DNA of 64,000 nucleotides from Alphaproteobacteria bacterium (GTDB taxonomy: Bacteria; Pseudomonadota; Alphaproteobacteria; UBA828): NCBI GenBank assembly GCA_965221125.1, contig CBDCRW010000001.1, positions 8,972 to 72,971 on the forward strand, in the 5' to 3' direction. Below are positions 40,394 through 49,263 of the stretch, one piece after another. Under the pieces are notes generated by a model. It had not been told where the DNA came from, did not search any database, and saw nothing but the letters and a program-made list of their open reading frames with translations. The position numbers and the translations under genes are program-made. Every line of letters begins with the position of its first letter. Position 1 is the first letter of the stretch.

Positions 40394-41209
40394 ATGCCAG
40401 AGTTGCTTCGGCCCGGCTCGATCGACGAGGCGGCCGCTCTGATCGCGCGACATGGCGCTGCGGCGGCGGTGCTCGCCGGCGGCACCAGCCTGGTGCGCGA
40501 GACCTATCCGTCGGACGGGGGCTACCTGATCGGGGTGGACCGCCTCGGCCTCGACAAGGTGGTCGCGCGCGACGGCGGCTGGTCGATCGGCGCCGCGGTT
40601 CCGCTCAGCGTGCTGCGCGAGGCCGTGCCGATTGCGGCGCTCCAGGCCGCGACACGCGAGATCGGCGGGCCTGCGGTGCAGAACATGGCGACGGTGGGCG
40701 GCAACCTCTTCGCCCGCGCGCCCTTCGGCGATCTTGCGCCGGCGCTGCTCGCCCTCGGCGCGCGCCTGGTGTTCGCGGCGGCCGACGGCGAGGCGATGCA
40801 GTCCATCGACGACTTCTACGCGGGCTGGTCCGACGGCGCACCGCCCGCTGCGGGCCTGCTCACACGGATCGAGATCGACGCGCCAACTGGTTCCGCCGCC
40901 TACATGAAGTGCGCGAGGCGGCGCTATTCGACGCCAGCCGTGGTCACGGTCGCCGCCAGCGTGGAGACGGACGGCGGCACGGTGAGCGCGGCCCGGATCG
41001 CGCTCAGCGGCGCGAGCGCGCACCCCTTCCGCTGCGCAGGCGCGGAGCAGGCGGTGATCGGCTCCAGCCTCGACGAGGCGGCGGTAACGGCGGCGGCCGA
41101 AGCGGCCGAGGGCGCGGTCGCGCCGCAGACCGACGCGGTCGCGAGCGAATGGTATCGCCGGCGCATGACGGGCGTCCTCGTCCGCCGGGTGCTGGCGGCG
41201 CTCGACTGA
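40394..41209 (+). CDS. FAD-binding subunit of a molybdenum hydroxylase (locus 2)
   Basis: Only the last 816 nt of track ORF 38567..41209 are real. ATG 40394 is preceded by GGAGGA. AVLAGGTSLV and NMATVGGNL motifs are present. Confidence 0.8.
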   Translation: MPELLRPGSIDEAAALIARHGAAAAVLAGGTSLVRETYPSDGGYLIGVDRLGLDKVVARDGGWSIGAAVPLSVLREAVPIAALQAATREIGGPAVQNMATVGGNLFARAPFGDLAPALLALGARLVFAAADGEAMQSIDDFYAGWSDGAPPAAGLLTRIEIDAPTGSAAYMKCARRRYSTPAVVTVAASVETDGGTVSAARIALSGASAHPFRCAGAEQAVIGSSLDEAAVTAAAEAAEGAVAPQTDAVASEWYRRRMTGVLVRRVLAALD

Positions 41210-41231
41210 CGACGTTGAACGGGAGGCAGAG

Positions 41232-41723
41232 ATGGACGACAAGCTGATACGCCTCACGGTCAACGGCCGTGACGAGGCCGTGGTGATCCGGCCGCTGGCG
41301 ACGCTGCAGGACGTGCTGCGCGACAACCTGGAGCTGACTGCGGTCAAGAGCGGCTGCGGCCAGGGCGGCTGCGGCAGCTGCTCGGTGCTGGTGGACGGGG
41401 AGCTTCGCCTCTCCTGCCTCACGCTCGCCGAGCGGGTCGAGGGGGCCGAGGTCACCACGCTGGAGGGCCTGAACGCCACCAACGCGATCGTGCCGCTGCA
41501 GCAGGCCTTCGTCGAGAACTACGCGGCGCAGTGCGGCTACTGCACCGCCGGCATGGTGATGGCGGCCAAGGCGCTGCTCGACCGCAATCCGTCGCCGAGC
41601 CGCGACGAGATCGTGGAAGGGCTCTCGGGCAATCTCTGCCGCTGCACCGGGTTCGCGCCCATCGTCCGTGCCGTGCAGCAGGCCGCAGCGGCGCTCTCGG
41701 ATAGCGGGGAGGAGGCGAGCTAA
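41232..41723 (+). CDS. (2Fe-2S)-binding subunit (locus 2)
   Basis: Cys motifs are CGQGGCGSCSV, CGYCTAG and CRCTGF. Confidence 0.85.
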   Translation: MDDKLIRLTVNGRDEAVVIRPLATLQDVLRDNLELTAVKSGCGQGGCGSCSVLVDGELRLSCLTLAERVEGAEVTTLEGLNATNAIVPLQQAFVENYAAQCGYCTAGMVMAAKALLDRNPSPSRDEIVEGLSGNLCRCTGFAPIVRAVQQAAAALSDSGEEAS

Positions 41724-43069
41724 TGTCGATGAAGGAACTCGGCGTCGTCGGCCGGAACGTCGGCCAGCGAGACCTCGAAAGCCACGCGCGCGGCCAGACG
41801 ACCTACTACGAGGACGTCCACTACCCGCGCATGCTGCATCTCAAGATGCACCGGAGCGCGGAACCACATGCCCGGATCGTGAGCGTGGATACCAGCGCGG
41901 CGGAGGCCAGCCCTGGCGTCGTCTGCGTGCTCACCCACGAGGACCTGCCGGGCAAGAAGGTGTGGAACGGCCTTGCCGCCGTCGGCGTCGGGCCGGAGGA
42001 CGAGCCGATCCTCGCCTTCGACAAGGTGCGCTGGCGGGGCGAGCCCATCGTCGCCGTGCTGGGCGAGAGCGCCGAGGCCGCGCGCGCCGGCGCGGCCAAG
42101 GTGAAGGTGGACTACGATCCGCTCCCCGGCGTGTTCGACGTGGAAGAGGCGATCGCGGGCGCAGCACCTGCGCTGACCGCCCACTGGCCGAACAACCACT
42201 ACATCTACCCGGACGACCACGGCGCCGCGCAGATCCGCTTCGGCGACGTGGAGCAGGGATTTGCCGAGGCCGACCACATCGTCGAGGACAAGTACCAGAC
42301 CAGCCCCATCGAGCAGGCACCGATGGAGACCAACGGCTGCATTGCCAAGCCGGGCGGCGACGGGCGCATCACGGTGCACACCAACACGCAGGCGGTGCAC
42401 TTCGCCCGCGACAACACCGCCGCCATCCTGGGGCTTGCGCCGGGCAAGCTGCGCTTCCTCGGCGGCACGGTGGGCGGCGGCTTCGGCGGCAAGGTGGACG
42501 TGGCGGTGGAGCCGATCTCGGTGCTGGCCGCCATGCGGACCGGGCGCCCGGTCAAGTTCAAGTACACGCGGGAAGAGGAGATGCAGGTTTCCTCGACCCG
42601 CTCCGCCTGGCGCCTCTACATCAAGGACGGCGTGATGAACGACGGGCGCATCGTCGCCCGCAAGATCACCTCCTACCAGGATTCGGGCGCCTACCTGCGC
42701 TTCAGCTCCTACGGCTCGATGAAGCACGCGGGCCACATGCCGGGGCCCTACACGATCCCCAACGTCTGGGTCGACGCGCGGGTGGTCTTCACCAACCGGC
42801 CGCCGTCGAGCGCGATGCGGGGCTTCGGCGTCATGGCCGCCTCCTTCGCCATCGAGCTGCAGATGGACAAGGTGGCCAAGACCATCGGCATGGACCCGTG
42901 GCAGCTCCGGCTGCTCAACGCCTACCGCAACGGCGACATGCGCGCGCACCGCAAGGTGAACGAGGACGCCGCGATGGTCGAGACCATCCAAGCGGCGGCG
43001 CGCATGGCCGGCCACGCGCTGCCGGCGGAGTACCAAGCGATGACCTCCTGGGACAGAAAGGCAAGCTGA
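41723..43069 (+). CDS. molybdopterin-binding subunit, N-terminal half (locus 2, NdhL-like)
   Basis: The product is 448 aa. It has the GVVGRNVGQRDLESHARGQTTYYEDV hammerhead start, GGGFGGK and the TNRPPSSAMRGFG loop. TAATG coupling to the FeS gene; it ends at a TGATG junction with the next gene. Confidence 0.8.
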   Translation: MSMKELGVVGRNVGQRDLESHARGQTTYYEDVHYPRMLHLKMHRSAEPHARIVSVDTSAAEASPGVVCVLTHEDLPGKKVWNGLAAVGVGPEDEPILAFDKVRWRGEPIVAVLGESAEAARAGAAKVKVDYDPLPGVFDVEEAIAGAAPALTAHWPNNHYIYPDDHGAAQIRFGDVEQGFAEADHIVEDKYQTSPIEQAPMETNGCIAKPGGDGRITVHTNTQAVHFARDNTAAILGLAPGKLRFLGGTVGGGFGGKVDVAVEPISVLAAMRTGRPVKFKYTREEEMQVSSTRSAWRLYIKDGVMNDGRIVARKITSYQDSGAYLRFSSYGSMKHAGHMPGPYTIPNVWVDARVVFTNRPPSSAMRGFGVMAASFAIELQMDKVAKTIGMDPWQLRLLNAYRNGDMRAHRKVNEDAAMVETIQAAARMAGHALPAEYQAMTSWDRKAS

Positions 43070-44082
43070 TGGCCAAGGTAAGGGGCACCGGCTTCGCGGC
43101 CGTGAACTATCCGACGGGGATGCACCTGGGCGGCGATCCCACCCAGTCGCTGATCCACATGACGCCGGCCGGCGACTTCGTCGTCACCATGGCGAGCGTC
43201 GATCTCGGCCAGGGCCTGCGCACCGTGCTGGCGCAGATCGCGGCCGAGACCCTCGGCGTCCCCTACGAGAGCATCGTGGTGGAGACCGCCGATACCGACA
43301 CCGGCCCGCATTGCACCGGCACCTTCGCGAGCCGCACCACGCACCGCGCCGGCAACGCCGTGGTGATGGCGGCGCAGGAAGCGCGCAAGGCCATGCTCGA
43401 GGTGGCGGGCGAGCTGCTGGAGGCAAGCCCGGAGGACCTCGAGACCGACGGCGGGGGCAACATCCACATCAAGGGCGTGGCGGAGAAGGCGGTCTCGGTC
43501 GGCGAGGTCGCCGGCGCCGCCCACTTCGCCCACGGCAAGACCATTGCGGGACGCGGTGCCTACCTCAAGCCGCCGAGCCCGATGGACCCGGAGACCGGCG
43601 CGTGCGACCCGGATTCGACGCAGGCCCATGCCTGCACCGTGGTCGAGGTCGAGGTCGATACCGAGACCGGGATGGTCGAGGTGATCGACATGAAGAGCGT
43701 CTACGAGGTGGGCCAGCAGGTGAACCCGGACCTAGTGAAGGGCCAGATCGTGGGCGGCTCCTGGATGGGCATAGGCCACGCGCTCTACGAGACCACCGCG
43801 CCCGGCTACCCGGCGATCGACCCCGCGCCGGTGGATTTCCAGAACTACCTGCAGCCCGGCGCGTCGGAGATGCCCGAGGTCGACTGCGAGGTGCTGGAGT
43901 ACCCGGCCGAGAGCGGCCCCTACGGCGGCAAGGGCGTGGGCGAGATGGTGACCAACGGGCCGATCCCGGCCATCGTGAACGCCATCAACAACGCGCTCGA
44001 CGTGCGCATCACCGAGATCCCGGTGACGCCCGAGGTCGTGCTTCGCGCCCTCGACGAGAAGAGGACGCAGGCGGCCTCCTGA
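43069..44082 (+). CDS. molybdopterin-binding subunit, C-terminal half (locus 2, NdhM-like)
   Basis: The product is 337 aa. It starts MAKVRGTGFAAVNYPTG and carries DLGQGLRTVLAQIAAETLGVP..VETADTD plus GKGVGEMV near the C-terminus. These are the C-terminal modules normally fused to the previous ORF. Confidence 0.8.
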   Translation: MAKVRGTGFAAVNYPTGMHLGGDPTQSLIHMTPAGDFVVTMASVDLGQGLRTVLAQIAAETLGVPYESIVVETADTDTGPHCTGTFASRTTHRAGNAVVMAAQEARKAMLEVAGELLEASPEDLETDGGGNIHIKGVAEKAVSVGEVAGAAHFAHGKTIAGRGAYLKPPSPMDPETGACDPDSTQAHACTVVEVEVDTETGMVEVIDMKSVYEVGQQVNPDLVKGQIVGGSWMGIGHALYETTAPGYPAIDPAPVDFQNYLQPGASEMPEVDCEVLEYPAESGPYGGKGVGEMVTNGPIPAIVNAINNALDVRITEIPVTPEVVLRALDEKRTQAAS

Positions 44083-44200
44083 CCGGCCCTGTGCGGCCCG
44101 GGGGGCCGGGTCGTGCGTATGGCGGCCTGAAGCCGCTTCGCTGGAGCCCGTCCGTACCTGACGGACGTGCGACGCGGCGGCGCTGGGCGGGTATGAGGGC

Positions 44201-44947
44201 ATGGTCAGCCTGAAGCTCGAATCGGTCACGGTCGACTTCTCCGTCTACAACGCCAGCACGCGCTCGCTGAAGAACCGCTTGCTGCATCGCGGCACGGGCG
44301 GGCGCATCGCGCAGGGCGCCGGCAGCCGGCTGGTGGTGCGTGCGCTGGAAGACGTGAGCCTCGCGTTCGAGCACGGCGACCGGGTAGGCCTGGTCGGCCC
44401 CAACGGCGCCGGCAAGACGACCCTGCTGCGCGTGCTCGCGGGCGCCTACGAACCCGCGCGCGGACGCGTCTACCGGCACGGAAGGACCGCGTCGCTGCTC
44501 AGCGGCTCGCTCGGCATCAACGCGGACGCGACGGGCTACGAGAACATCGTGACACGGGGGCTCTTTCTCGGCCTGCGGCCGGAGCAGGTGCGCGCGCGCA
44601 TGGACGAGATTGCGGCGTTCACGGAGCTTGGCGACTACCTGGCGATGCCGGTGCACACCTACTCGACGGGCATGCGGCTGCGGCTCGCCTTTGCGGTGTG
44701 CACCTGCTTCGAGCCCGAGATCCTGCTGATGGACGAGTGGCTGGGCATGGGCGACCGGGCCTTCATCGAGAAGGCGAAGCGGCGGATGGAAGAATTCGTG
44801 GACCGTGCCGGGATCCTCGTGCTCGCATCGCAACACGCGGGCCTCCTTGCGCGGGTCTGCAGCACAGGGGTCCTGCTCGACGCGGGTCGGGTCAAGGCGC
44901 GCGGGCCGATCGACGAGGTCCTGCGGGAGTACGGGCAGGCTGCTTAG
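44201..44947 (+). CDS. polysaccharide-export-type ABC ATPase (KpsT/Wzt/TagH-like), no adjacent permease
   Basis: It has Walker A GPNGAGKTT, the signature YSTGMRLRLAFA and Walker B ILLMDEW. The product is 248 aa with no C-terminal carbohydrate-binding extension. Confidence 0.7.
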   Translation: MVSLKLESVTVDFSVYNASTRSLKNRLLHRGTGGRIAQGAGSRLVVRALEDVSLAFEHGDRVGLVGPNGAGKTTLLRVLAGAYEPARGRVYRHGRTASLLSGSLGINADATGYENIVTRGLFLGLRPEQVRARMDEIAAFTELGDYLAMPVHTYSTGMRLRLAFAVCTCFEPEILLMDEWLGMGDRAFIEKAKRRMEEFVDRAGILVLASQHAGLLARVCSTGVLLDAGRVKARGPIDEVLREYGQAA

Positions 44948-45030
44948 GTTCAGCCGTCGCCAGTCGCGCGGCACCATCAAGATAACTTGCGCGCCTGACC
45001 ACCAACAACGAATGCTCAAGCGAATAACGT

Positions 45031-47106
45031 ATGTTGCTCCATGCCTGTATACGGCTACAATGGAGCGATGGCGTCGGCTTCCCGATAGCGTTTGTCTTCG
45101 CACTCATAATTCCAGAGATAAGTTGGAATATGATCCACGTAATTGACGACGGGTTGTTTGCCCTTATATCGCCCGTACTTGTCCACTATTCGCTTGCAAT
45201 ACGCCGCGTCATATTTGGGACAATCAGGTTGGTGGTGAGGAAGCTCAGAAGGGCAACGAGGCAGCTCAAGAAACGAGTGAGACGGCTCGGAAGGCAGACG
45301 AGGCGGCTCAAGAGGACAGTAGGGAAGCTCAAGACGCTAGCGGGGCAACTCAGAAGGCTGTCGAGGCAGATCAAGAAACGGGCGAGACAGCCTAGAAAGC
45401 CGGCGAGGCAGCTCAATAGAGTAGCGCGGAAGATTGGGAAGCTGGCGAGACATCTCGTAAGGCTGGCGAGGCGGCTCAGAAGGCGAGTGAGGCGGTTCAG
45501 AAGGGTAGCAGGAAAACTCAAGAGGCTGGTGAGACAGCTCAGAAGGCAGGTAAAGCGGTTTAGACGTGCAGCGCGAAAGCTCAAGAGGATGGTAAGGAAA
45601 TTCAAGAGCGCAGTACGGCAATTCAGAAGGGTCGTGAGGCAACTTAGAAGGGCGGCGACGCGTCGTACGAGAAGGGTAAAGGGGTTTGGACGCACGGGAT
45701 ACAGGCTGGCCCGTTCTCGCGTTTCTTGGCGGATAGCGACCGGACATCTCACATCCGTTCTGCTCAGACGTTCAGACCCTGAGACCAGGCGATTGTCCAC
45801 GAAAATACGGCACGCGAACGGGAATCTGTCCACGCGAATGCTCTTTCTTCTGGGCGATTTCAGGGCGGCGATGGATCAGGCGCTGAGCGACCTCGAATCG
45901 TGCCCCGACGACGCAGAGGCACGCATGCTCGTCGTCGGCTGCGCGATCGAGCTGGGCGATCTCGAATGCGCCCGACGGTATCTGAATCGGCTGGATGCAG
46001 GGTCTACGCCCGCCTATCTCAGGGAACAACTGCCGTTCTTCCGGTACACGCTCGCCAGAGAAAATGGGCCGGACGGCCCGGTGCAGGCAATCCGGCATCT
46101 TGACGACCTGTATCTGGCCATGGGCTGCCAACCCATTCGCCTGAATCCGGCAGGCATCCACGATCCATTCGATTCGCTTGCGCCCGTTGCGGCGATGAAA
46201 CCGCGTTGCCGGGATGGCTATCCGCCTCTATGCGATGGGCCGCTCGTCTCGGTCGTCATGACCGCCTACAACGTCGAGCATCTGGTGAAGACGTCGGTCA
46301 TGTCCGTTCTGAACCAGAATTATCGCAACCTGGAGCTGATCGTCGTGGACGACTGCAGCACCGATGGCACGCTGGAAACGCTTCGTCTCCTGGAGGAAGA
46401 GGACGAGCGCATGCAGGTTATCGCCAAGGACACGAACGACGGGACGTACGTCAGCAAGAACCTTGGCATGCTTCGGGCCCGCGGAGAGTTCATGGCGTTT
46501 CAGGACAGCGACGACTGGTCGCATCCCGACAGGCTCGGAAAGAGCATCGCCGTCCTGGCGTCGGAGCCGGAGACCGTTGCGCTTACGACCAACTGGGTGC
46601 GCATGACGACCGAGGGTGACCTTATCCTGAAAGGCACGAACCGCTACGCATACAAATCGTGCATTTCCCTCGTGTTCCGCAGGAAGGAGGTGCTGCACCG
46701 CTCGGGCTTCTTCGATTCCGTTCGCGCCGGGGCCGATACCGAGTTCGAGGTCAGGAACGGCATCCTGTTCGGCGAACACAGGGTGGCGACGTATGCGTGG
46801 CCGCTGGCCTTTGGCCGCGTGCGCCCTGAATCGATTACCGCCGACGCCGAATACGGACTGGCGCGGTACGGAGGCAAGCCAATCCGGGAGGAATACCGGA
46901 AGGCTTGCCGAAAATGGCACGAGGAAATCCGCCGCGGCCGTGATGGCTACATGCCGTTTCCTCTTCGCGAAAGACCGTTCGACGCCCCCGGCAAGCTCCT
47001 GACCGCGAACGGGACGCCGATGCCCAGCGAGCTGATCCGGGAGCATCCTGGGTGGATGCGGCCTCATTCTTCAGAGAGGCCAACACGGAGCTCGGCCGCT
47101 CGCTGA
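45031..47106 (+). CDS. family 2 glycosyltransferase with TPR-like region and an N-terminal Arg/Lys heptad-repeat extension (true start uncertain)
   Basis: The GT2 core is VSVVMTAYNVEHLVKTSVMSVLNQNYRNLELIVVDDCSTDGT...FQDSDDWSHPDRL. A TPR-like helix pair lies upstream. The same frame is open back through the 21-bp repeat array to ATG 45031, with two hydrophobic segments at the extreme N-terminus. The GT2 part is confident; the N-terminal 270 aa are not. Confidence 0.6.
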   Translation: MLLHACIRLQWSDGVGFPIAFVFALIIPEISWNMIHVIDDGLFALISPVLVHYSLAIRRVIFGTIRLVVRKLRRATRQLKKRVRRLGRQTRRLKRTVGKLKTLAGQLRRLSRQIKKRARQPRKPARQLNRVARKIGKLARHLVRLARRLRRRVRRFRRVAGKLKRLVRQLRRQVKRFRRAARKLKRMVRKFKSAVRQFRRVVRQLRRAATRRTRRVKGFGRTGYRLARSRVSWRIATGHLTSVLLRRSDPETRRLSTKIRHANGNLSTRMLFLLGDFRAAMDQALSDLESCPDDAEARMLVVGCAIELGDLECARRYLNRLDAGSTPAYLREQLPFFRYTLARENGPDGPVQAIRHLDDLYLAMGCQPIRLNPAGIHDPFDSLAPVAAMKPRCRDGYPPLCDGPLVSVVMTAYNVEHLVKTSVMSVLNQNYRNLELIVVDDCSTDGTLETLRLLEEEDERMQVIAKDTNDGTYVSKNLGMLRARGEFMAFQDSDDWSHPDRLGKSIAVLASEPETVALTTNWVRMTTEGDLILKGTNRYAYKSCISLVFRRKEVLHRSGFFDSVRAGADTEFEVRNGILFGEHRVATYAWPLAFGRVRPESITADAEYGLARYGGKPIREEYRKACRKWHEEIRRGRDGYMPFPLRERPFDAPGKLLTANGTPMPSELIREHPGWMRPHSSERPTRSSAAR
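45238..45700. repeat. tandem array of about 20-22 imperfect 21-bp units
   Basis: Head-to-tail units with consensus near AGG CAG CTC AGA AGG SNG GYG, aligned by hand unit by unit. There are no spacers between units. Confidence 0.9.
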
Positions 47107-47197
47107 TGGCCGAGGCGCGCTTGCGGTCCCGGACGCTCCGGTGCCTTGATCCGGTGGCGCCGGCGCTGGACGGCGATCGGCCGGCAGCGGCGGGGTG

Positions 47198-48958
47198 CTA
47201 TGCCTCGCTCTCACCCGCTGGCGCCGTCACGCGGATCGTCACGATGTCGGCGCCGTGGTACTGCTGATGGCGGACGGAGGACGCGAGCCGGCGCAACAGC
47301 CGCAGCGAGACCTCCTGCTCGGCCGAGACCTCGCCGGGCTGGTCGCCGAGCAGCGACAGGCGATCCTGGATATTGCCCTCGCGCGAGGCGACGACGAACT
47401 CGAGAACGGCGCCATCGCCCTCTCGGTAGGCCACCAGGCGCAGGCGGCGCTCCTCCTTCTCCTCTTTCGCGTCCTCCTGCTGCAAGAGCGTCAGCAGCGC
47501 CTCTTCGCAGACGGCGTCGAGGCGGGCGGTCATCGCCTCGTCCCAGCCGCTGCGGGTGGCGAAGGCGGCGAGAAAGTCCCTGATCTCGGGCAGGATCGAG
47601 TGATCGAAGGGCGCCTCGATGCGGCTGCGGCGGGGCCTCGTCAGCTCCACGAAGGCGGTCATCAGGATGGCCGTGAGACCGCCGGCCGTGACCCCGTTGC
47701 GCAGGAGGCCGCCCGCGAATTCCGCGACGTGCTCGGGAAACACCAGGTCGTTCTGGAAGCCGACGCCGATCCAGAACGAGACGCCGACGATCAGCCCCTT
47801 GCGGTAGTCGATGCCGTCCTGGATGGCGATCCTCATGCCGATCACGAAGAGCGTCGCCAGCAGCACGCCGAGATAGGCGGCGATCACCGGCCCCGGTATC
47901 GCCAGCACCAGCGCCAGCAGCTTGGGCAGGAACGCCACCGCGAAGAAGACCGCCCCGCAGGCGACGCCGACGCTGCGGGCGCCCACGCCGGTGAGCTCGG
48001 TCACCGATGCGCCCACGGTGGTGGCGGTGTTCGGCGTCGTGCCCACGAGGCCGGAGAGCACGTTGCCGAGCGTATCCACGGTGACCGCCCCCTGGACCGC
48101 GCGAAAATCCACCGCCCGCGGCCTGCGCCACGAGACCCGCTGGATCGCGACGGCGCCGCTGATGGAGCGGATCGTGGCGATCACCGCCACCAGGAGGAAG
48201 GCCGGAAGCAGCGCCCAGAACGACGGCCCGAAGTCGACATCGAAGCCCGCCCACTCGCCCGCCGGCACGCCGACCCAGGGTGCGTCCACCACGCGGCCCG
48301 CGTCGTAGAGGCCGAATGCGGCGGCGACGCCCGTGCCGGCGACGACGCCGATGACCGGCGCCCAGAGGCGGAGCGCGCCCGACGCCTTGAGCGCGATGGC
48401 AGCAAGCACGAGCACCACCGCTAACGCGCTCAACGGCGCCGCCAAAGCGGGGGTCCCCTCCGGCACCGCAGCCAGGAGCTTGAAGACGGCCGGCATCACA
48501 GTGACCGGAATCAGCATGATCACGGTGCCCGAGACCGTCGGCGTCAGGATCCGCTGGAAGAGCGCGAGACGAACGGAAATCAGGAACGGAACGAGGGAGG
48601 AGATGATGACCAGCGTGGCCAGCAAGGCCGGGCCGCCGGCCGCGACCGCATTGATGCAGACCGCGATGAAGGCCCCGGAGGCGCCCATGATGAGCACGTG
48701 GCCAGAGCCGATCCGCCCGGTGCGGAGCGATTGCAGCGCCGTGGTCAGGCCGCAGATCGCAACCGTGCCGAACACCGCCCACGAGAGGTAGTCCTCGCTC
48801 GCGCCGGCGGCACGCATCACGATGGTGGGCACCAGGATGATGCCGGCGATGGTGAGCACGGCGATCTGAACGCCGAGCCCGAAGGCGAGCGCGGCCGGCG
48901 GCCTCTCGTCCGGCTGGTAGCGGAGGCCGGTGCGGCCCCCGGACCCGTTCGCGCTCAT
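47198..48958 (-). CDS. NCS2-family nucleobase (xanthine/uracil-type) permease with about 146-aa C-terminal soluble domain
   Basis: Trimmed to ATG 48958. The core is polytopic, with TTPNTATTVGASVTELTGV (an NCS2 signature-like block). The hydrophilic tail lies at nt 47201-47638. Confidence 0.7.
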   Translation of the reverse strand: MSANGSGGRTGLRYQPDERPPAALAFGLGVQIAVLTIAGIILVPTIVMRAAGASEDYLSWAVFGTVAICGLTTALQSLRTGRIGSGHVLIMGASGAFIAVCINAVAAGGPALLATLVIISSLVPFLISVRLALFQRILTPTVSGTVIMLIPVTVMPAVFKLLAAVPEGTPALAAPLSALAVVLVLAAIALKASGALRLWAPVIGVVAGTGVAAAFGLYDAGRVVDAPWVGVPAGEWAGFDVDFGPSFWALLPAFLLVAVIATIRSISGAVAIQRVSWRRPRAVDFRAVQGAVTVDTLGNVLSGLVGTTPNTATTVGASVTELTGVGARSVGVACGAVFFAVAFLPKLLALVLAIPGPVIAAYLGVLLATLFVIGMRIAIQDGIDYRKGLIVGVSFWIGVGFQNDLVFPEHVAEFAGGLLRNGVTAGGLTAILMTAFVELTRPRRSRIEAPFDHSILPEIRDFLAAFATRSGWDEAMTARLDAVCEEALLTLLQQEDAKEEKEERRLRLVAYREGDGAVLEFVVASREGNIQDRLSLLGDQPGEVSAEQEVSLRLLRRLASSVRHQQYHGADIVTIRVTAPAGESEA

Positions 48959-49263
48959 GCTGAAGCTCGCCGACCTCGCTGGTCTCTGCCGTCCGCACGC
49001 ATCATTGGGGCTTCGATGGCCGCTGTCGACCCGTTCCTCTCCAACCTCGATACCGGACATCGGCGGTGGTAGCCGCAGCGCCGGCGGCATCCCCAGGGAA
49101 TTCCTCGCCTCGGGGGGACTCGTTGGCCTTGACGCCGGTGGCTAGCCGAGTGGTCCGCGAATCCCCCGAAGCCGACTCCCACGATCGCGAAATAGCGCGT
49201 ATTGATAGATCGACTTCAACACCAACACTGGCCGCTCGAGCGGCCGCCAACGGGAGATGGACC

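What the first reader, a model, noticed from the sequence alone, without database searches (positions are those of the whole stretch)
45238..45700. About 20 tandem 21-bp repeats encode an acid-free, roughly half Arg/Lys heptad array in frame with a TPR-GT2 glycosyltransferase
Seen directly: from 45238 the DNA is a head-to-tail array of imperfect 21-bp units (consensus near AGG CAG CTC AGA AGG SNG GYG). In the frame that runs without a stop into the TPR-like and GT2 domains, each unit is one heptad. The heptads read RKLRRAT RQLKKRV RRLGRQT RRLKRTV GKLKTLA GQLRRLS RQIKKRA RQPRKPA RQLNRVA RKIGKLA RHLVRLA RRLRRRV RRFRRVA GKLKRLV RQLRRQV KRFRRAA RKLKRMV RKFKSAV RQFRRVV RQLRRAA. Hydrophobic residues sit at positions 3 (L/I/F) and 7 (V/A), which is the 3-4 spacing of a coiled-coil a/d core. 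By my hand count 65 of these 140 residues are Arg/Lys and none is Asp/Glu. A coiled coil whose solvent-exposed positions are all basic or neutral should be unstable unless a polyanion neutralises it (acidic polysaccharide, phospholipid, nucleic acid or polyphosphate). Established knowledge: in ABC-transporter-dependent glycan pathways, coiled coils act as chain-length molecular rulers (WbdD of E. coli O9a, WbbB of Klebsiella/Raoultella). Inference: this gene directly follows a KpsT/Wzt-like ATPase. Because every heptad is also a 21-bp DNA repeat, slipped-strand gain or loss would change the rod length by whole heptads without breaking frame or register. That would make it a potentially evolvable stalk or ruler. 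I do not recognise this array from any described family.
Basis: partly seen in the sequence, partly recalled or inferred. Interest (0 to 1): 0.8.

Follow-up and report, generated by a model that had tools for sequence, protein, structure and literature searches.

The report
Variable polybasic helical arm on glycosyltransferase
A sugar-polymer enzyme in an uncultured alphaproteobacterium carries a 140-residue N-terminal helix that is almost half arginine/lysine, has no acidic residues, is built from twenty 21-bp DNA repeats, and changes length by whole repeats between close relatives; it most likely tethers the enzyme to the membrane, but this has not been tested.

Summary
From 45238 there are 20 degenerate 21-bp units, encoding 140 residues with 65 Arg/Lys and no Asp/Glu. 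They lie in frame with a GT2 domain most similar to the GT2 domain of Pasteurella heparosan synthase PmHS2.

Seven related loci (75-95% identical enzyme) carry the array. Six keep it fully in frame, and only this frame lacks stops in the six aligned loci. Length differs by exactly 1, 1, 6 and 9 units; one relative differs by 72 nt.

Two corrections apply. ATG 45031 is not conserved and the 68 hydrophobic residues show no coding signal. An invariant GTG at 45235 is the likely start. Gene callers start relatives at 45838, but the linker upstream is conserved in homologs down to about 43% identity.

More distant homologs have only 1-4 basic heptads. Other lineages expanded the arm independently with 63-, 66- and 111-bp units, some with 3.6-3.7-residue periodicity.

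My best reading is a polybasic amphipathic arm that binds membrane or another anionic surface. The coiled-coil ruler idea is neither supported nor excluded. The repeats are too degenerate for rapid slippage.

The parts
44201..44947 (+). Wzt/TagH/KpsT-type ABC transporter ATPase of 248 aa, without a C-terminal carbohydrate-binding domain. It is the conserved upstream neighbour of the glycosyltransferase.
   Evidence: Pfam ABC_tran scores 2e-21. NCBIfam galactan-export Wzt/RfbE scores 3e-84 (282 bits, below the 400-bit cut-off) and TagH scores 1e-42. The ATPase is adjacent to the GT2 gene in L001, L002, L005/L071, L065, L066, L068 and L070. Its GC3 is 0.91, like the host genes.
44948..45234 (+). 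Low-GC (about 51%) leader between the ATPase and the array. It includes the non-conserved ATG at 45031 and the 68-codon hydrophobic ORF extension, which is probably not translated.
   Evidence: The GC profile shows the low-GC stretch. The ATG is ACG in L001 and L066, and the frame is interrupted by a stop in L065. pN/pS in this frame is about 0.83, no better than in the other frames. L068 and L072 have unrelated sequence here.
45224..45237 (+). Invariant TCAGG, then six bases, then GTG. This is the proposed weak Shine-Dalgarno sequence and GTG start codon (45235-45237).
   Evidence: These bases are invariant in all six aligned loci while the flanking bases vary (alignment A2). L068 and L072 carry an ATG eight codons upstream at the equivalent position. 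No experiment supports this start.
45238..45657 (+). Array of 20 units of 21 bp, encoding 20 basic heptads (consensus RQLRRLA). It has 65 of 140 Arg/Lys and no Asp/Glu. 35 of its 47 Arg codons are AGA or AGG.
   Evidence: It is the only frame without stops in the six aligned loci. Simulated neutral drift from the consensus unit gives about 3.7 stops, about 3.4 Asp/Glu and about 40 Arg/Lys. None of 20000 simulations reached 65 Arg/Lys, and the joint probability of no stop and no Asp/Glu was 0.0005. AlphaFold2 predicts helices at residues 2-50 and 57-140 with pLDDT about 80, with a break at the RQPRKPA unit.
45658..45837 (+). Two degenerate basic units followed by a conserved linker (GRTGYRLARSRVSWRIATGHLTSVLLRRSDPETRRLSTKIRHANGNLSTR). 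It lies upstream of the Met that gene callers use as the start.
   Evidence: The linker aligns in homologs down to about 43% identity. Its pN/pS is 0.37 in this frame, against 0.46-2.2 in the other frames. AlphaFold2 confidence is low here, with pLDDT 34-67.
45838..46236 (+). Helical, TPR-like region that begins at MLFLLGDF. This is the start that gene callers chose in the close relatives.
   Evidence: Pfam TPR_19 scores E 0.004, below its cut-off. AlphaFold2 predicts helices at residues 200-295 with pLDDT above 90. Distant homologs carry a true TPR region of about 900 aa at this position.
46237..47106 (+). GT2 (GT-A fold) catalytic domain, C-terminal tail and stop codon.
   Evidence: Pfam PF00535 scores 1.8e-27 over residues 407-524. 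A sequence search of the PDB gives PmHS2 (8vh7) at 2e-33 and the K4CP second domain at 3e-14. Foldseek gives PmHS2 8viw at E 1.7e-24 with 29% identity over 260 columns and rmsd 3.0. GC3 is 0.76 against 0.91-0.94 in the neighbouring genes.

Best explanation
The array is translated and forms the extreme N-terminus of a GT2 glycosyltransferase of about 623 aa, with the probable start at GTG 45235. It folds as a long, strongly amphipathic, polycationic alpha-helical arm with net charge +65.

This arm is a lineage-specific tandem-repeat expansion. The ancestral form, seen in more distant members of this GT2 clade, is a short basic amphipathic N-terminal helix of 1-4 heptads (Met, then xSIARxxRRxAR, then LGRTG).

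The most likely job of the arm is to hold this otherwise soluble, PmHS2-like enzyme on an anionic surface. [quoted passage not shown] Binding would use a Leu/Val/Ala/Phe stripe flanked by Arg and Lys.

Length changes arise by gain and loss of whole repeat units, through unequal recombination or microhomology-mediated events. They occur on an evolutionary timescale.

Shown by the data: the repeat, its frame, its protein-level constraint, unit-wise length variation, independent expansions in other lineages, and the identity of the catalytic domain.
Inferred: the start codon, the helical state in vivo, the binding partner, and any effect of arm length.
For: Translation:
- All seven close relatives (L001, L002, L065, L066, L067, L068, L072) carry the array in the GT2 frame, and six of them keep it fully in frame.
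- The +1 frame is the only one without stops in the six aligned loci.
- The linker between the array and Met 45838 is conserved in homologs down to about 43% identity and has pN/pS 0.37.
- L068 and L072 have an ATG at the 5' edge of the array, and the window clade has an invariant GTG there.

Protein-level constraint:
- With the observed divergence between units, neutral drift would give about 40 Arg/Lys, about 3.4 Asp/Glu and about 3.7 stops. The observed values are 65, 0 and 0.

Ancestral short arm:
- P0010, P0012, P0013, P0014, P0019, P0022, P0122 and the L068 paralog start with 1-4 basic heptads.

Recurrent expansion:
- Units of 21 bp (window clade), 63 bp (L068), 66 bp (L072) and 111 bp at 99% identity (L069) are all in frame and all basic.

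Amphipathicity:
- The local hydrophobic moment is 0.69-0.84 in every lineage, with 33-46% Arg/Lys and 0-2 Asp/Glu.
- The periodicity is 103 degrees in the window clade but 97-100 degrees (3.6-3.7 residues per turn, giving a straight stripe) in L069, L072 and the short forms. This fits an in-plane surface helix better than a canonical heptad coiled coil.

Structure prediction:
- AlphaFold2 predicts long helices but no confident packing. The N-terminal fragment alone has pTM 0.31 and Foldseek finds no hit for it.

Precedents:
- Peripheral bacterial glycosyltransferases are known to be tethered by amphipathic helices: MG517 (PMC6506492) and TagA (PMC6493773), both listed.
- WbdD has a membrane-associated amphipathic helix (PMC11231755).
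Against: - There is no experimental evidence of translation, start site, localisation or lipid binding.
- In the window clade the periodicity is exactly 3.5. On a straight helix the hydrophobic stripe would therefore wind about 400 degrees over 140 residues. The whole arm could lie flat on a membrane only if it is overwound, curved, or broken at its Gly/Pro units. This periodicity is what a left-handed coiled coil would show.
- An anchor needs only 2-4 heptads, so membrane tethering alone does not explain why 12-21 heptads are kept.
- pN/pS within the array is only weakly below 1 (0.66) and does not clearly beat the other frames.
- L002 has a 1-nt insertion in unit 1.
- Gene callers uniformly skip the array.
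Confidence: 0.42

Rival explanations
1. Coiled-coil stalk or molecular ruler. The heptad array oligomerises or forms a hairpin, with its charge neutralised by a polyanion. It holds the GT2 domain at a set distance from the membrane or from partner enzymes, so that the number of heptads sets polysaccharide chain length. In one variant the GT2 domain itself is the chain terminator at the far end of the coil.
For: - The register is perfectly coherent at 3.5 residues per turn over 140 residues in the window clade.
- Most length differences between relatives are whole heptads.
- A Wzt-type ATPase is adjacent.
- Known ruler systems are marked by a long coiled coil, and one terminator (ORF7 of serotype O4) combines a glycosyltransferase, a TPR-like bundle and a coiled coil (PMC11231755).
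- L068 and L070 hold tandem paralogs with different arm lengths.
- The array weakly matches designed antiparallel coiled coils in the PDB.
Against: - No separate terminator module (methyltransferase, kinase or GT99-type domain) lies beyond the array, whereas the described rulers pair a terminating enzyme with polymerising GT modules across the coil.
- The Wzt lacks a carbohydrate-binding domain and no permease or polymerase gene is nearby.
- With +65 net charge and basic e positions, self-association is electrostatically unfavourable.
- AlphaFold2 gives no confident packing.
- Sister lineages have 22-aa and 37-aa units and 97-99 degree periodicity, and L065 differs by a non-heptad 24 aa.
Confidence: 0.18
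2. Product or polyanion tether. The polycationic arm binds the growing acidic polysaccharide (the GT2 domain resembles the PmHS2, K4CP and TuaG enzymes of uronic-acid polymer synthesis), or polyphosphate or nucleic acid. This would raise processivity or localise the enzyme.
For: - The closest catalytic relatives make uronic-acid polymers: the GT2 domain of PmHS2, the second domain of K4CP, and TuaG as the top NCBIfam hit.
- Asp and Glu are strictly excluded and Arg/Lys are retained.
Against: - A conserved hydrophobic stripe (L/F/I at position 3, V/A at position 7) is not needed for purely electrostatic binding to a hydrophilic polyanion.
- The donor sugar and the product are unknown.
- No UDP-glucose dehydrogenase gene or other sugar gene lies in the window locus.
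Confidence: 0.12
3. The array acts mainly at the level of mRNA or translation, or is a tolerated expansion with no function of its own. Here the run of rare AGA/AGG codons and the purine-rich leader would throttle or regulate expression, and the peptide would be incidental.
For: - 35 of 47 Arg codons in the array are AGA or AGG, which make up 0-16% of Arg codons in host genes.
- pN/pS in the array is only 0.66.
- The long form is restricted to one clade, and paralogs and homologs function with 1-4 heptads.
- A possible leader stem lies over the putative start, but only one base pair covaries.
Against: - Arg/Lys content, absence of Asp/Glu and hydrophobic positions 3 and 7 are kept far beyond neutral expectation.
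- Independent expansions with different DNA units all give basic amphipathic helices.
- The frame is preserved in six of seven relatives.
Confidence: 0.13
4. The array is not translated. The gene starts at ATG 45838 as annotated in the relatives, and the repeat is a non-coding leader or a DNA-level element. Alternatively, one of the open minus-strand frames (45186-45833 or 45337-45747) is the real gene.
For: - Gene callers start P0001 and P0003-P0005 at the equivalent Met.
- No strong Shine-Dalgarno sequence precedes GTG 45235.
- Two minus-strand frames are open across the array in the window.
Against: - The linker upstream of 45838 is conserved as protein in homologs down to about 43% identity and has pN/pS 0.37.
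- The minus-strand frames and the other plus-strand frames acquire 7-121 stops across the relatives, while the GT2 frame acquires none.
- The minus-strand ORF has no Pfam match.
- Rfam and promoter scans find nothing.
Confidence: 0.07

Closest known systems
WbdD (E. coli O9a / K. pneumoniae O3) and WbbB (K. pneumoniae O12 / Raoultella) coiled-coil molecular rulers
   Same: Both are long heptad-based helical extensions on cytoplasmic enzymes of ABC-transporter-dependent glycan assembly. WbdD also carries a membrane-associated amphipathic helix (PMC11231755).
   Different: In the known rulers the coil separates a terminating enzyme (methyltransferase/kinase or a Kdo transferase) from the polymerising GT modules. 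Those coils have ordinary mixed charge and oligomerise. Here the array is the extreme N-terminus with no separate module beyond it. It carries +65 net charge and no acidic residues. Oligomerisation is unsupported, the Wzt lacks a carbohydrate-binding domain, and sister lineages do not keep a heptad period.
Pasteurella multocida heparosan synthase PmHS2 (GT2 domain) and E. coli K4 chondroitin polymerase K4CP (second domain)
   Same: These are the best sequence and fold matches to the catalytic domain: PmHS2 at 2e-33, Foldseek 1.7e-24 with 29% identity over 260 columns, and K4CP at 3e-14. They are peripheral, cytoplasmic-face enzymes of ABC-transporter-dependent capsule pathways (PMC12834895).
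   Different: The window protein has a single GT domain and no second transferase domain. It has a TPR-like helical region and the polybasic repeat arm, which PmHS2 and K4CP lack. Its donor sugar and product are unknown.
Amphipathic-helix membrane anchors of peripheral bacterial glycosyltransferases (for example Mycoplasma MG517 and S. aureus TagA)
   Same: These are short basic amphipathic helices that tether a soluble GT fold to anionic membranes (PMC6506492 and PMC6493773, listed). The ancestral 1-4-heptad arm of this clade looks like such an anchor.
   Different: Known anchors are about 15-25 residues long, are usually C-terminal, and are not repeat arrays. Here the arm has been amplified to 87-157 residues by tandem duplication and is copy-number polymorphic.
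In-frame tandem-repeat (VNTR) helical proteins with variable length, such as streptococcal M proteins and the Yersinia YscP needle-length ruler (recalled from general knowledge, not checked here)
   Same: In both, the DNA repeat unit is a multiple of 3, and unit gain or loss changes the length of a helical segment without breaking the frame.
   Different: Those are surface or secreted proteins with mixed charge. This array sits on a cytoplasmic enzyme, is entirely basic, and its units are degenerate (59% identity, longest exact repeat 13 bp).

Membership tests
Glycosyltransferase family 2 (GT-A fold, Pfam PF00535) | A match to the family profile above the curated cut-off, and a GT-A fold with a DxD-type motif | tested here: met
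   PF00535 scores 96.8 bits against a cut-off of 23.3. The DSDD motif is invariant in the alignment. AlphaFold2 pLDDT exceeds 95 in the domain, and Foldseek matches GT2 structures.
PmHS2/K4CP-type uronic-acid-polymer synthases | Bifunctional enzyme with two transferase domains, and demonstrated UDP-GlcA transfer | tested here: not met
   Only one GT domain is present, and nothing matches the GlcNAc- or GalNAc-transferase half. Donor specificity cannot be tested with these tools. The protein is a relative of one domain, not a member of the synthase family.
Coiled-coil molecular-ruler terminators (WbdD / WbbB / ORF7-O4 / ORF6-O7 type) | [quoted passage not shown] | tested here: inconclusive
   No methyltransferase, kinase or Kdo-transferase module is found by Pfam or NCBIfam, and nothing lies N-terminal to the array. 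The GT2 domain itself could be a terminator, which cannot be judged from sequence.
Coiled-coil molecular-ruler terminators (WbdD / WbbB type) | The coil forms a stable oligomer, and its length sets glycan chain length | not testable with these tools
   Only monomer AlphaFold2 was available. It gives helices without confident packing (pTM 0.31, no Foldseek hit). Biophysical measurements and heptad-series mutants are needed.
Coiled-coil molecular-ruler systems | Heptad periodicity conserved across orthologous arms | tested here: not met
   The window, L067 and L068 arms peak near 103 degrees. The L069 arm (37-aa unit) peaks at 97.4 degrees, the L072 arm (22-aa unit) at 99.2 degrees, and the short forms at 98-100 degrees. 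L065 differs from the window by 24 aa.
Tetratricopeptide repeat (TPR) proteins | A match to a TPR profile above the curated cut-off | tested here: inconclusive
   TPR_19 scores 17.9 bits against a cut-off of 25, E 0.004. The region is predicted to be helical, and distant homologs carry real TPR arrays at the same position.
Wzt/KpsT/TagH glycan-export ABC ATPases (the upstream neighbour) | ABC ATPase with a best match to the Wzt/TagH models, partnered with a Wzm/KpsM permease | tested here: inconclusive
   ABC_tran is met. The Wzt/RfbE model scores 282 bits, below its equivalog cut-off of 400. No permease gene is adjacent in the window, L001 or L071.
Phase-variable simple-sequence contingency loci | Near-identical short repeats that allow frequent slipped-strand mispairing | tested here: not met
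   Mean pairwise unit identity is 59% and the longest exact repeat is 13 bp. Single-unit differences accompany 5-8% protein divergence.

The most novel reading that the evidence does not exclude
The arm is an electrostatic ruler or scaffold whose length is set by the number of repeats. In this reading the polycationic amphipathic helix folds or bundles only when neutralised by an anionic partner, either the acidic polysaccharide product or an anionic lipid surface. The number of units then sets how far from the membrane the GT2 domain acts, or on how long a chain it acts. The GT2 domain might be a chain terminator. Paralogs with short and long arms in one locus (L068, L070) would act at different positions along the growing polymer. 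This would be a new way of controlling chain length in ABC-transporter-dependent glycan synthesis, without the classical terminator-plus-coiled-coil protein.
Probability: 0.1. Interest if true: 0.8.

Novelty: new variant of a known kind. Interest (0 to 1): 0.55.

Why it matters
If the arm is functional, it shows a simple evolutionary route for tuning an enzyme. In-frame tandem duplication of a short membrane-anchor helix could change how strongly a polysaccharide-making enzyme is tethered to the membrane or to its anionic product, or how far from the membrane it sits. This has happened independently at least three or four times in one GT2 clade.

The arm would also be an unusual protein object: about 21 nm of helix with +65 charge and no acidic residue. 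It could be useful for studying polyanion-induced folding or the binding of very long amphipathic helices to membranes.

There is a practical annotation point as well. Automatic gene callers truncate every close relative at an internal Met, so this feature is invisible in protein databases. Homology-based annotation of this family misses about 200 N-terminal residues.

Tried and rejected
- **Minus-strand ORFs across the array (45186-45833 and 45337-45747).** They are open in the window but acquire stops in relatives and have no Pfam match. Rejected.
- **ATG 45031 and the hydrophobic 68-aa N-terminus.** The ATG is not conserved and the stretch shows no coding signature. Rejected as part of the protein.
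- **Rfam search at permissive E-value over 44800-45900.** It returned only a chance lncRNA hit at E 0.45.
- **Sigma-70 promoter and terminator scan.** It found nothing on the + strand.
- **RNAalifold on the conserved leader.** It proposes a stem over the putative start, but only 1 covarying pair supports it. Not pursued further.
- **First genome-collection scan with the single protein.** It found nothing. The profile scan found only relatives at 60% identity or less, in unnamed alphaproteobacterial MAGs, so the organism could not be named.
- **HMMER search of 1.84 billion representatives with the N-terminal 201 aa.** It gave 53 weak hits. Most were unrelated heptad or coiled-coil repeats, and one was a truncated family member. 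No family exists for the array.
- **Foldseek with the arm-only model.** It gave no hits, so hairpin and extended geometry could not be told apart.
- **pN/pS within the array.** It does not discriminate between frames. I used stop-codon counts and a drift simulation instead.
- **Search for a Wzm/KpsM permease next to the ATPase.** None was found in the window, L001 or L071.


Full report
**1. Checking the observation**

The window sequence from 45238 to 45657 is an uninterrupted series of twenty 21-bp units. Two further degenerate units follow, up to 45699.
- The consensus unit is AGGCAGCTCAGAAGGCTGGCG, which translates to RQLRRLA.
- Units are 72% identical to the consensus on average and 59% identical to each other.
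- Identity at lag 21 is 0.564. Mononucleotide shuffles give 0.29 +/- 0.022 and codon shuffles give 0.33 +/- 0.023, and no shuffle in 2000 reached the observed value.
- A 63-bp (three-heptad) super-period is also visible.
- Tandem Repeats Finder reports period 21 with 10.1 copies, and period 63 with 2.1 copies.

There are 47 Arg and 18 Lys, which is 65 of 140 residues, and no Asp or Glu. Position 3 is L/F/I in 19 of 20 units and position 7 is A/V in 17 of 20. The frame continues without a stop into a GT2 domain. The longest exact repeat within the array is 13 bp. An assembly artefact is therefore unlikely, and so is rapid slipped-strand slippage.

**2. Is the array translated, and from where?**

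The genome is about 70% G+C with GC3 of 0.91-0.94 in neighbouring genes. The glycosyltransferase gene is atypical, with GC3 0.76 in its core and 0.67 in the array. The 287 bp upstream of the array are only about 51% G+C.

A protein search found close homologs at 83-95% identity. All were called as proteins of 411-427 aa, most of them starting at the Met equivalent to ATG 45838. The gene callers therefore skipped the array.

I fetched the DNA of these and other relatives: L001, L002, L065, L066, L067, L068 and L072.
- In every one, the GT2 frame remains open upstream through a basic heptad array.
- Across the six aligned loci, the GT2 frame is the only one of six frames with no stop. The other frames accumulate 7-121 stops summed over the pairwise comparisons.
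- The 60-residue linker between the array and Met 45838 (GRTGYRLARSRVSWRI...NGNLSTR) aligns with the called N-termini of homologs down to about 43% identity.
- The linker has pN/pS of 0.37 in this frame, against 0.46-2.2 in the other frames.

Translation starting at 45838 is therefore unlikely.

- ATG 45031 is ACG in L001 and L066.
- The frame is cut by a stop in L065.
- L068 and L072 have unrelated sequence in this region.
- pN/pS for the hydrophobic 68 codons is about 0.83, no better than in non-coding frames.

At the 5' edge of the array, TCAGG-N6-GTG (45224-45237) is invariant in all six aligned loci. L068 and L072 carry an ATG eight codons upstream of the equivalent position. I therefore propose GTG 45235 as the start. 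This gives a 623-aa protein whose N-terminus is the array itself. The start codon is an inference, because the Shine-Dalgarno sequence is weak.

**3. Is there constraint at the protein level?**

pN/pS inside the array is only 0.66 and does not single out one frame. I therefore simulated neutral drift of each unit away from the consensus, using the observed number of changes per unit. The simulation yields about 3.7 stops, about 3.4 Asp/Glu and about 40 Arg/Lys. The observed values are 0, 0 and 65. None of 20000 simulations reached 65 Arg/Lys, and the joint probability of no stop and no acidic residue was 0.0005. The basic, acid-free, amphipathic pattern is therefore being maintained.

**4. Length variation among relatives**

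I measured the distance from the conserved GTG to the conserved Met in each locus.

| Locus | GTG to Met (nt) | Difference from the window |
|---|---|---|
| window | 603 | reference |
| L001 | 582 | 1 unit shorter |
| L066 | 624 | 1 unit longer |
| L067 | 414 | 9 units shorter |
| L065 | 531 | 72 nt shorter, in frame but not a whole number of heptads |
| L002 | 478 | 6 units shorter, plus one extra G |

The window, L001 and L066 differ by two clean 21-bp indels. In L002 the extra G lies in a G-run within unit 1 and shifts the frame. Judging by the contig name, L002 comes from a long-read assembly, so I suspect a homopolymer error, but I cannot verify this.

The units are degenerate, and single-unit differences accompany 5-8% protein divergence. 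This is slow evolutionary change, not phase variation.

**5. The wider family**

More distant members (45-70% identity) begin with a Met followed by only 1-4 basic heptads and then the same linker. Examples are P0010, P0012-P0014, P0019, P0022, P0122 and the first of two tandem paralogs in L068.

Other lineages expanded the arm independently, using different repeat units:
- L069 (P0006) has a 111-bp unit in 3.1 copies at 99% identity.
- L072 has a 66-bp unit in 2.4-3.1 copies.
- L068 has a 63-bp unit plus a 21-bp unit.

All these arms are 33-46% Arg/Lys with 0-2 acidic residues and are strongly amphipathic, with local hydrophobic moments of 0.69-0.84. Their periodicity differs, however. It is 103 degrees (3.5 residues per turn) in the window, L067 and L068, but 97.4 degrees in L069, 99.2 degrees in L072, and 98-100 degrees in the short forms. 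What the family conserves is a basic amphipathic helix, not a heptad register.

Relatives at 50% identity or less replace the arm with about 900 residues of TPR-rich sequence, and they lack the adjacent ATPase.

A HMMER scan of 1.84 billion representative proteins with the arm plus linker found only 53 weak hits, nearly all unrelated repeat proteins. Pfam and NCBIfam have no model for the arm.

**6. The catalytic domain and the gene neighbourhood**

The C-terminal domain is GT2 (PF00535, E 1.8e-27). Its best solved relative by sequence and by predicted fold is the GT2 domain of Pasteurella heparosan synthase PmHS2. The sequence match scores 2e-33, and Foldseek scores 1.7e-24 with 29% identity over 260 columns. 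The second domain of chondroitin polymerase K4CP follows, and the best NCBIfam hit is TuaG. This hints at synthesis of a uronic-acid polymer but does not show it.

The upstream gene is a 248-aa Wzt/TagH/KpsT-type ATPase without a carbohydrate-binding domain. It is adjacent in all relatives at 59% identity or more where enough flanking DNA is available. No permease gene is next to it. In the window, L001 and L066 the gene pair sits inside a purine-catabolism locus, between xanthine-dehydrogenase-like genes and an NCS2 permease. In L071 the pair lies within a sugar-nucleotide and polysaccharide locus.

**7. Structure prediction**

AlphaFold2 on the 623-aa protein gives mean pLDDT 84.9 and pTM 0.71. 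It models the array as helices at residues 2-50 and 57-140 with pLDDT about 80, broken at the RQPRKPA unit. A low-confidence linker follows, then a confident helical region and the GT-A domain. The arm modelled alone gives pLDDT 70 and pTM 0.31, and Foldseek finds no match for it. The prediction is therefore long helices without confident packing.

**8. Mechanism**

My best-supported reading has confidence of about 0.4. [quoted passage not shown]

Precedents exist. Peripheral glycosyltransferases are known to be anchored by amphipathic helices (MG517, PMC6506492; TagA, PMC6493773). WbdD has a membrane-associated amphipathic helix (PMC11231755).

Three lines of evidence favour this reading:
- The ancestral form of the arm is short.
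- The property conserved across the family is amphipathicity rather than heptad register.
- Several lineages have a 3.6-3.7 periodicity, which gives a straight hydrophobic stripe.

Two points count against it:
- An anchor needs only a few turns of helix.
- In the window clade the exact 3.5 periodicity would wind the hydrophobic stripe about 400 degrees around a straight helix, which is what a left-handed coiled coil would show.

The coiled-coil ruler reading (about 0.18) therefore remains open. It lacks several features of the known systems: no separate terminator module lies beyond the coil, the Wzt has no carbohydrate-binding domain, and there is no evidence of oligomerisation. The +65 charge also makes self-association difficult.

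The other rivals are as follows:
- A tether for an acidic product or another polyanion (about 0.12).
- An effect mainly at the translational level, through 35 rare AGA/AGG codons, or a merely tolerated expansion (about 0.13).
- Non-translation of the array (about 0.07).

**9. Novelty and verdict**

The array is conserved, in frame, under compositional constraint and variable by whole units. Similar arms were generated independently in sister lineages, and the feature is invisible in current gene calls.

Its kind is known: an amphipathic anchor helix, and an in-frame tandem-repeat helical segment. The combination is not described in any family I could find. That combination is an acid-free, roughly half-basic arm of 87-157 residues on a PmHS2-like GT2. 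I rate it a new variant of a known kind, with moderate interest of 0.55.

Noticed in passing
window 44201-47106; also L001, L002, L065, L066, L068, L070, L071: There is a sharp, consistent step in codon composition at the junction between the ATPase and the GT2 gene in every locus. ATPase GC3 is 0.76-0.93 and GT2 GC3 is 0.61-0.81 (0.91 against 0.76 in the window). This resembles the pattern of conserved transporter genes next to horizontally exchanged serotype-specific genes in capsule loci.
   Followed up: partly
window 41169-49090; L001; L066; L071 7900-10000: The Wzt-type ATPase has no adjacent permease. The ATPase-GT2 pair is inserted in a purine-catabolism locus, between xanthine-dehydrogenase-like subunits and an NCS2 xanthine permease. 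In L071 the pair lies in a sugar-nucleotide locus, and the N-terminus of that ATPase appears, by eye, to carry a DegT-like fragment; this was not tested.
   Followed up: partly
L002 about 5540 (unit 1 of the array): A single extra G in a G-run (AAGGGGC against AAGGGC) shifts the frame at the first repeat unit. Without it the array is exactly 6 units shorter than in the window. It could be a long-read homopolymer error or a real inactivating or switching mutation.
   Followed up: partly
window 45238-45657 in the +1-shifted frame; L002 5322-6413; L001 4989-5579: Shifted by one base, the same repeat encodes an acidic heptad (roughly EAAQKxG), the charge mirror of the basic arm. This frame contains stops in the window and in other loci, so it is probably just a curiosity.
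   Followed up: partly
window 45115-45237 and the equivalent regions of L001, L002, L065, L066, L067: A leader of about 110 bp directly upstream of the putative GTG is well conserved and low in G+C. RNAalifold proposes a stem pairing 45183-45196 with 45225-45237, which would cover the putative Shine-Dalgarno sequence and start codon. Only one base pair covaries.
   Followed up: partly
L068 1229-4284; L070 772-5206: Two loci hold tandem GT2 paralogs with arms of different length. L068 has one paralog with 1-2 heptads and one with about 13. L070 has one with about 4 and one with about 7. This may mean that arm length is specialised for each enzyme.
   Followed up: no
L065 4586-7269; L069 4009-6922; L071 15006-20793: Mobile elements lie next to the GT2 gene in several relatives: DDE transposases, two group II intron reverse transcriptases and IS copies. 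This is consistent with horizontal movement of the module.
   Followed up: no
P0001, P0003-P0005 and many homologs of 381-392 aa: Automatic gene calls for this family systematically start at the internal Met of MLFxxGDF. They omit the conserved linker and any basic arm, so database proteins are truncated by 60-270 residues at the N-terminus.
   Followed up: yes
window 45238-45657: 35 of the 47 Arg codons in the array are AGA or AGG, often as adjacent AGA-AGG pairs. These codons account for 0-16% of Arg codons in the neighbouring host genes, so the array could be a strong translational bottleneck.
   Followed up: partly
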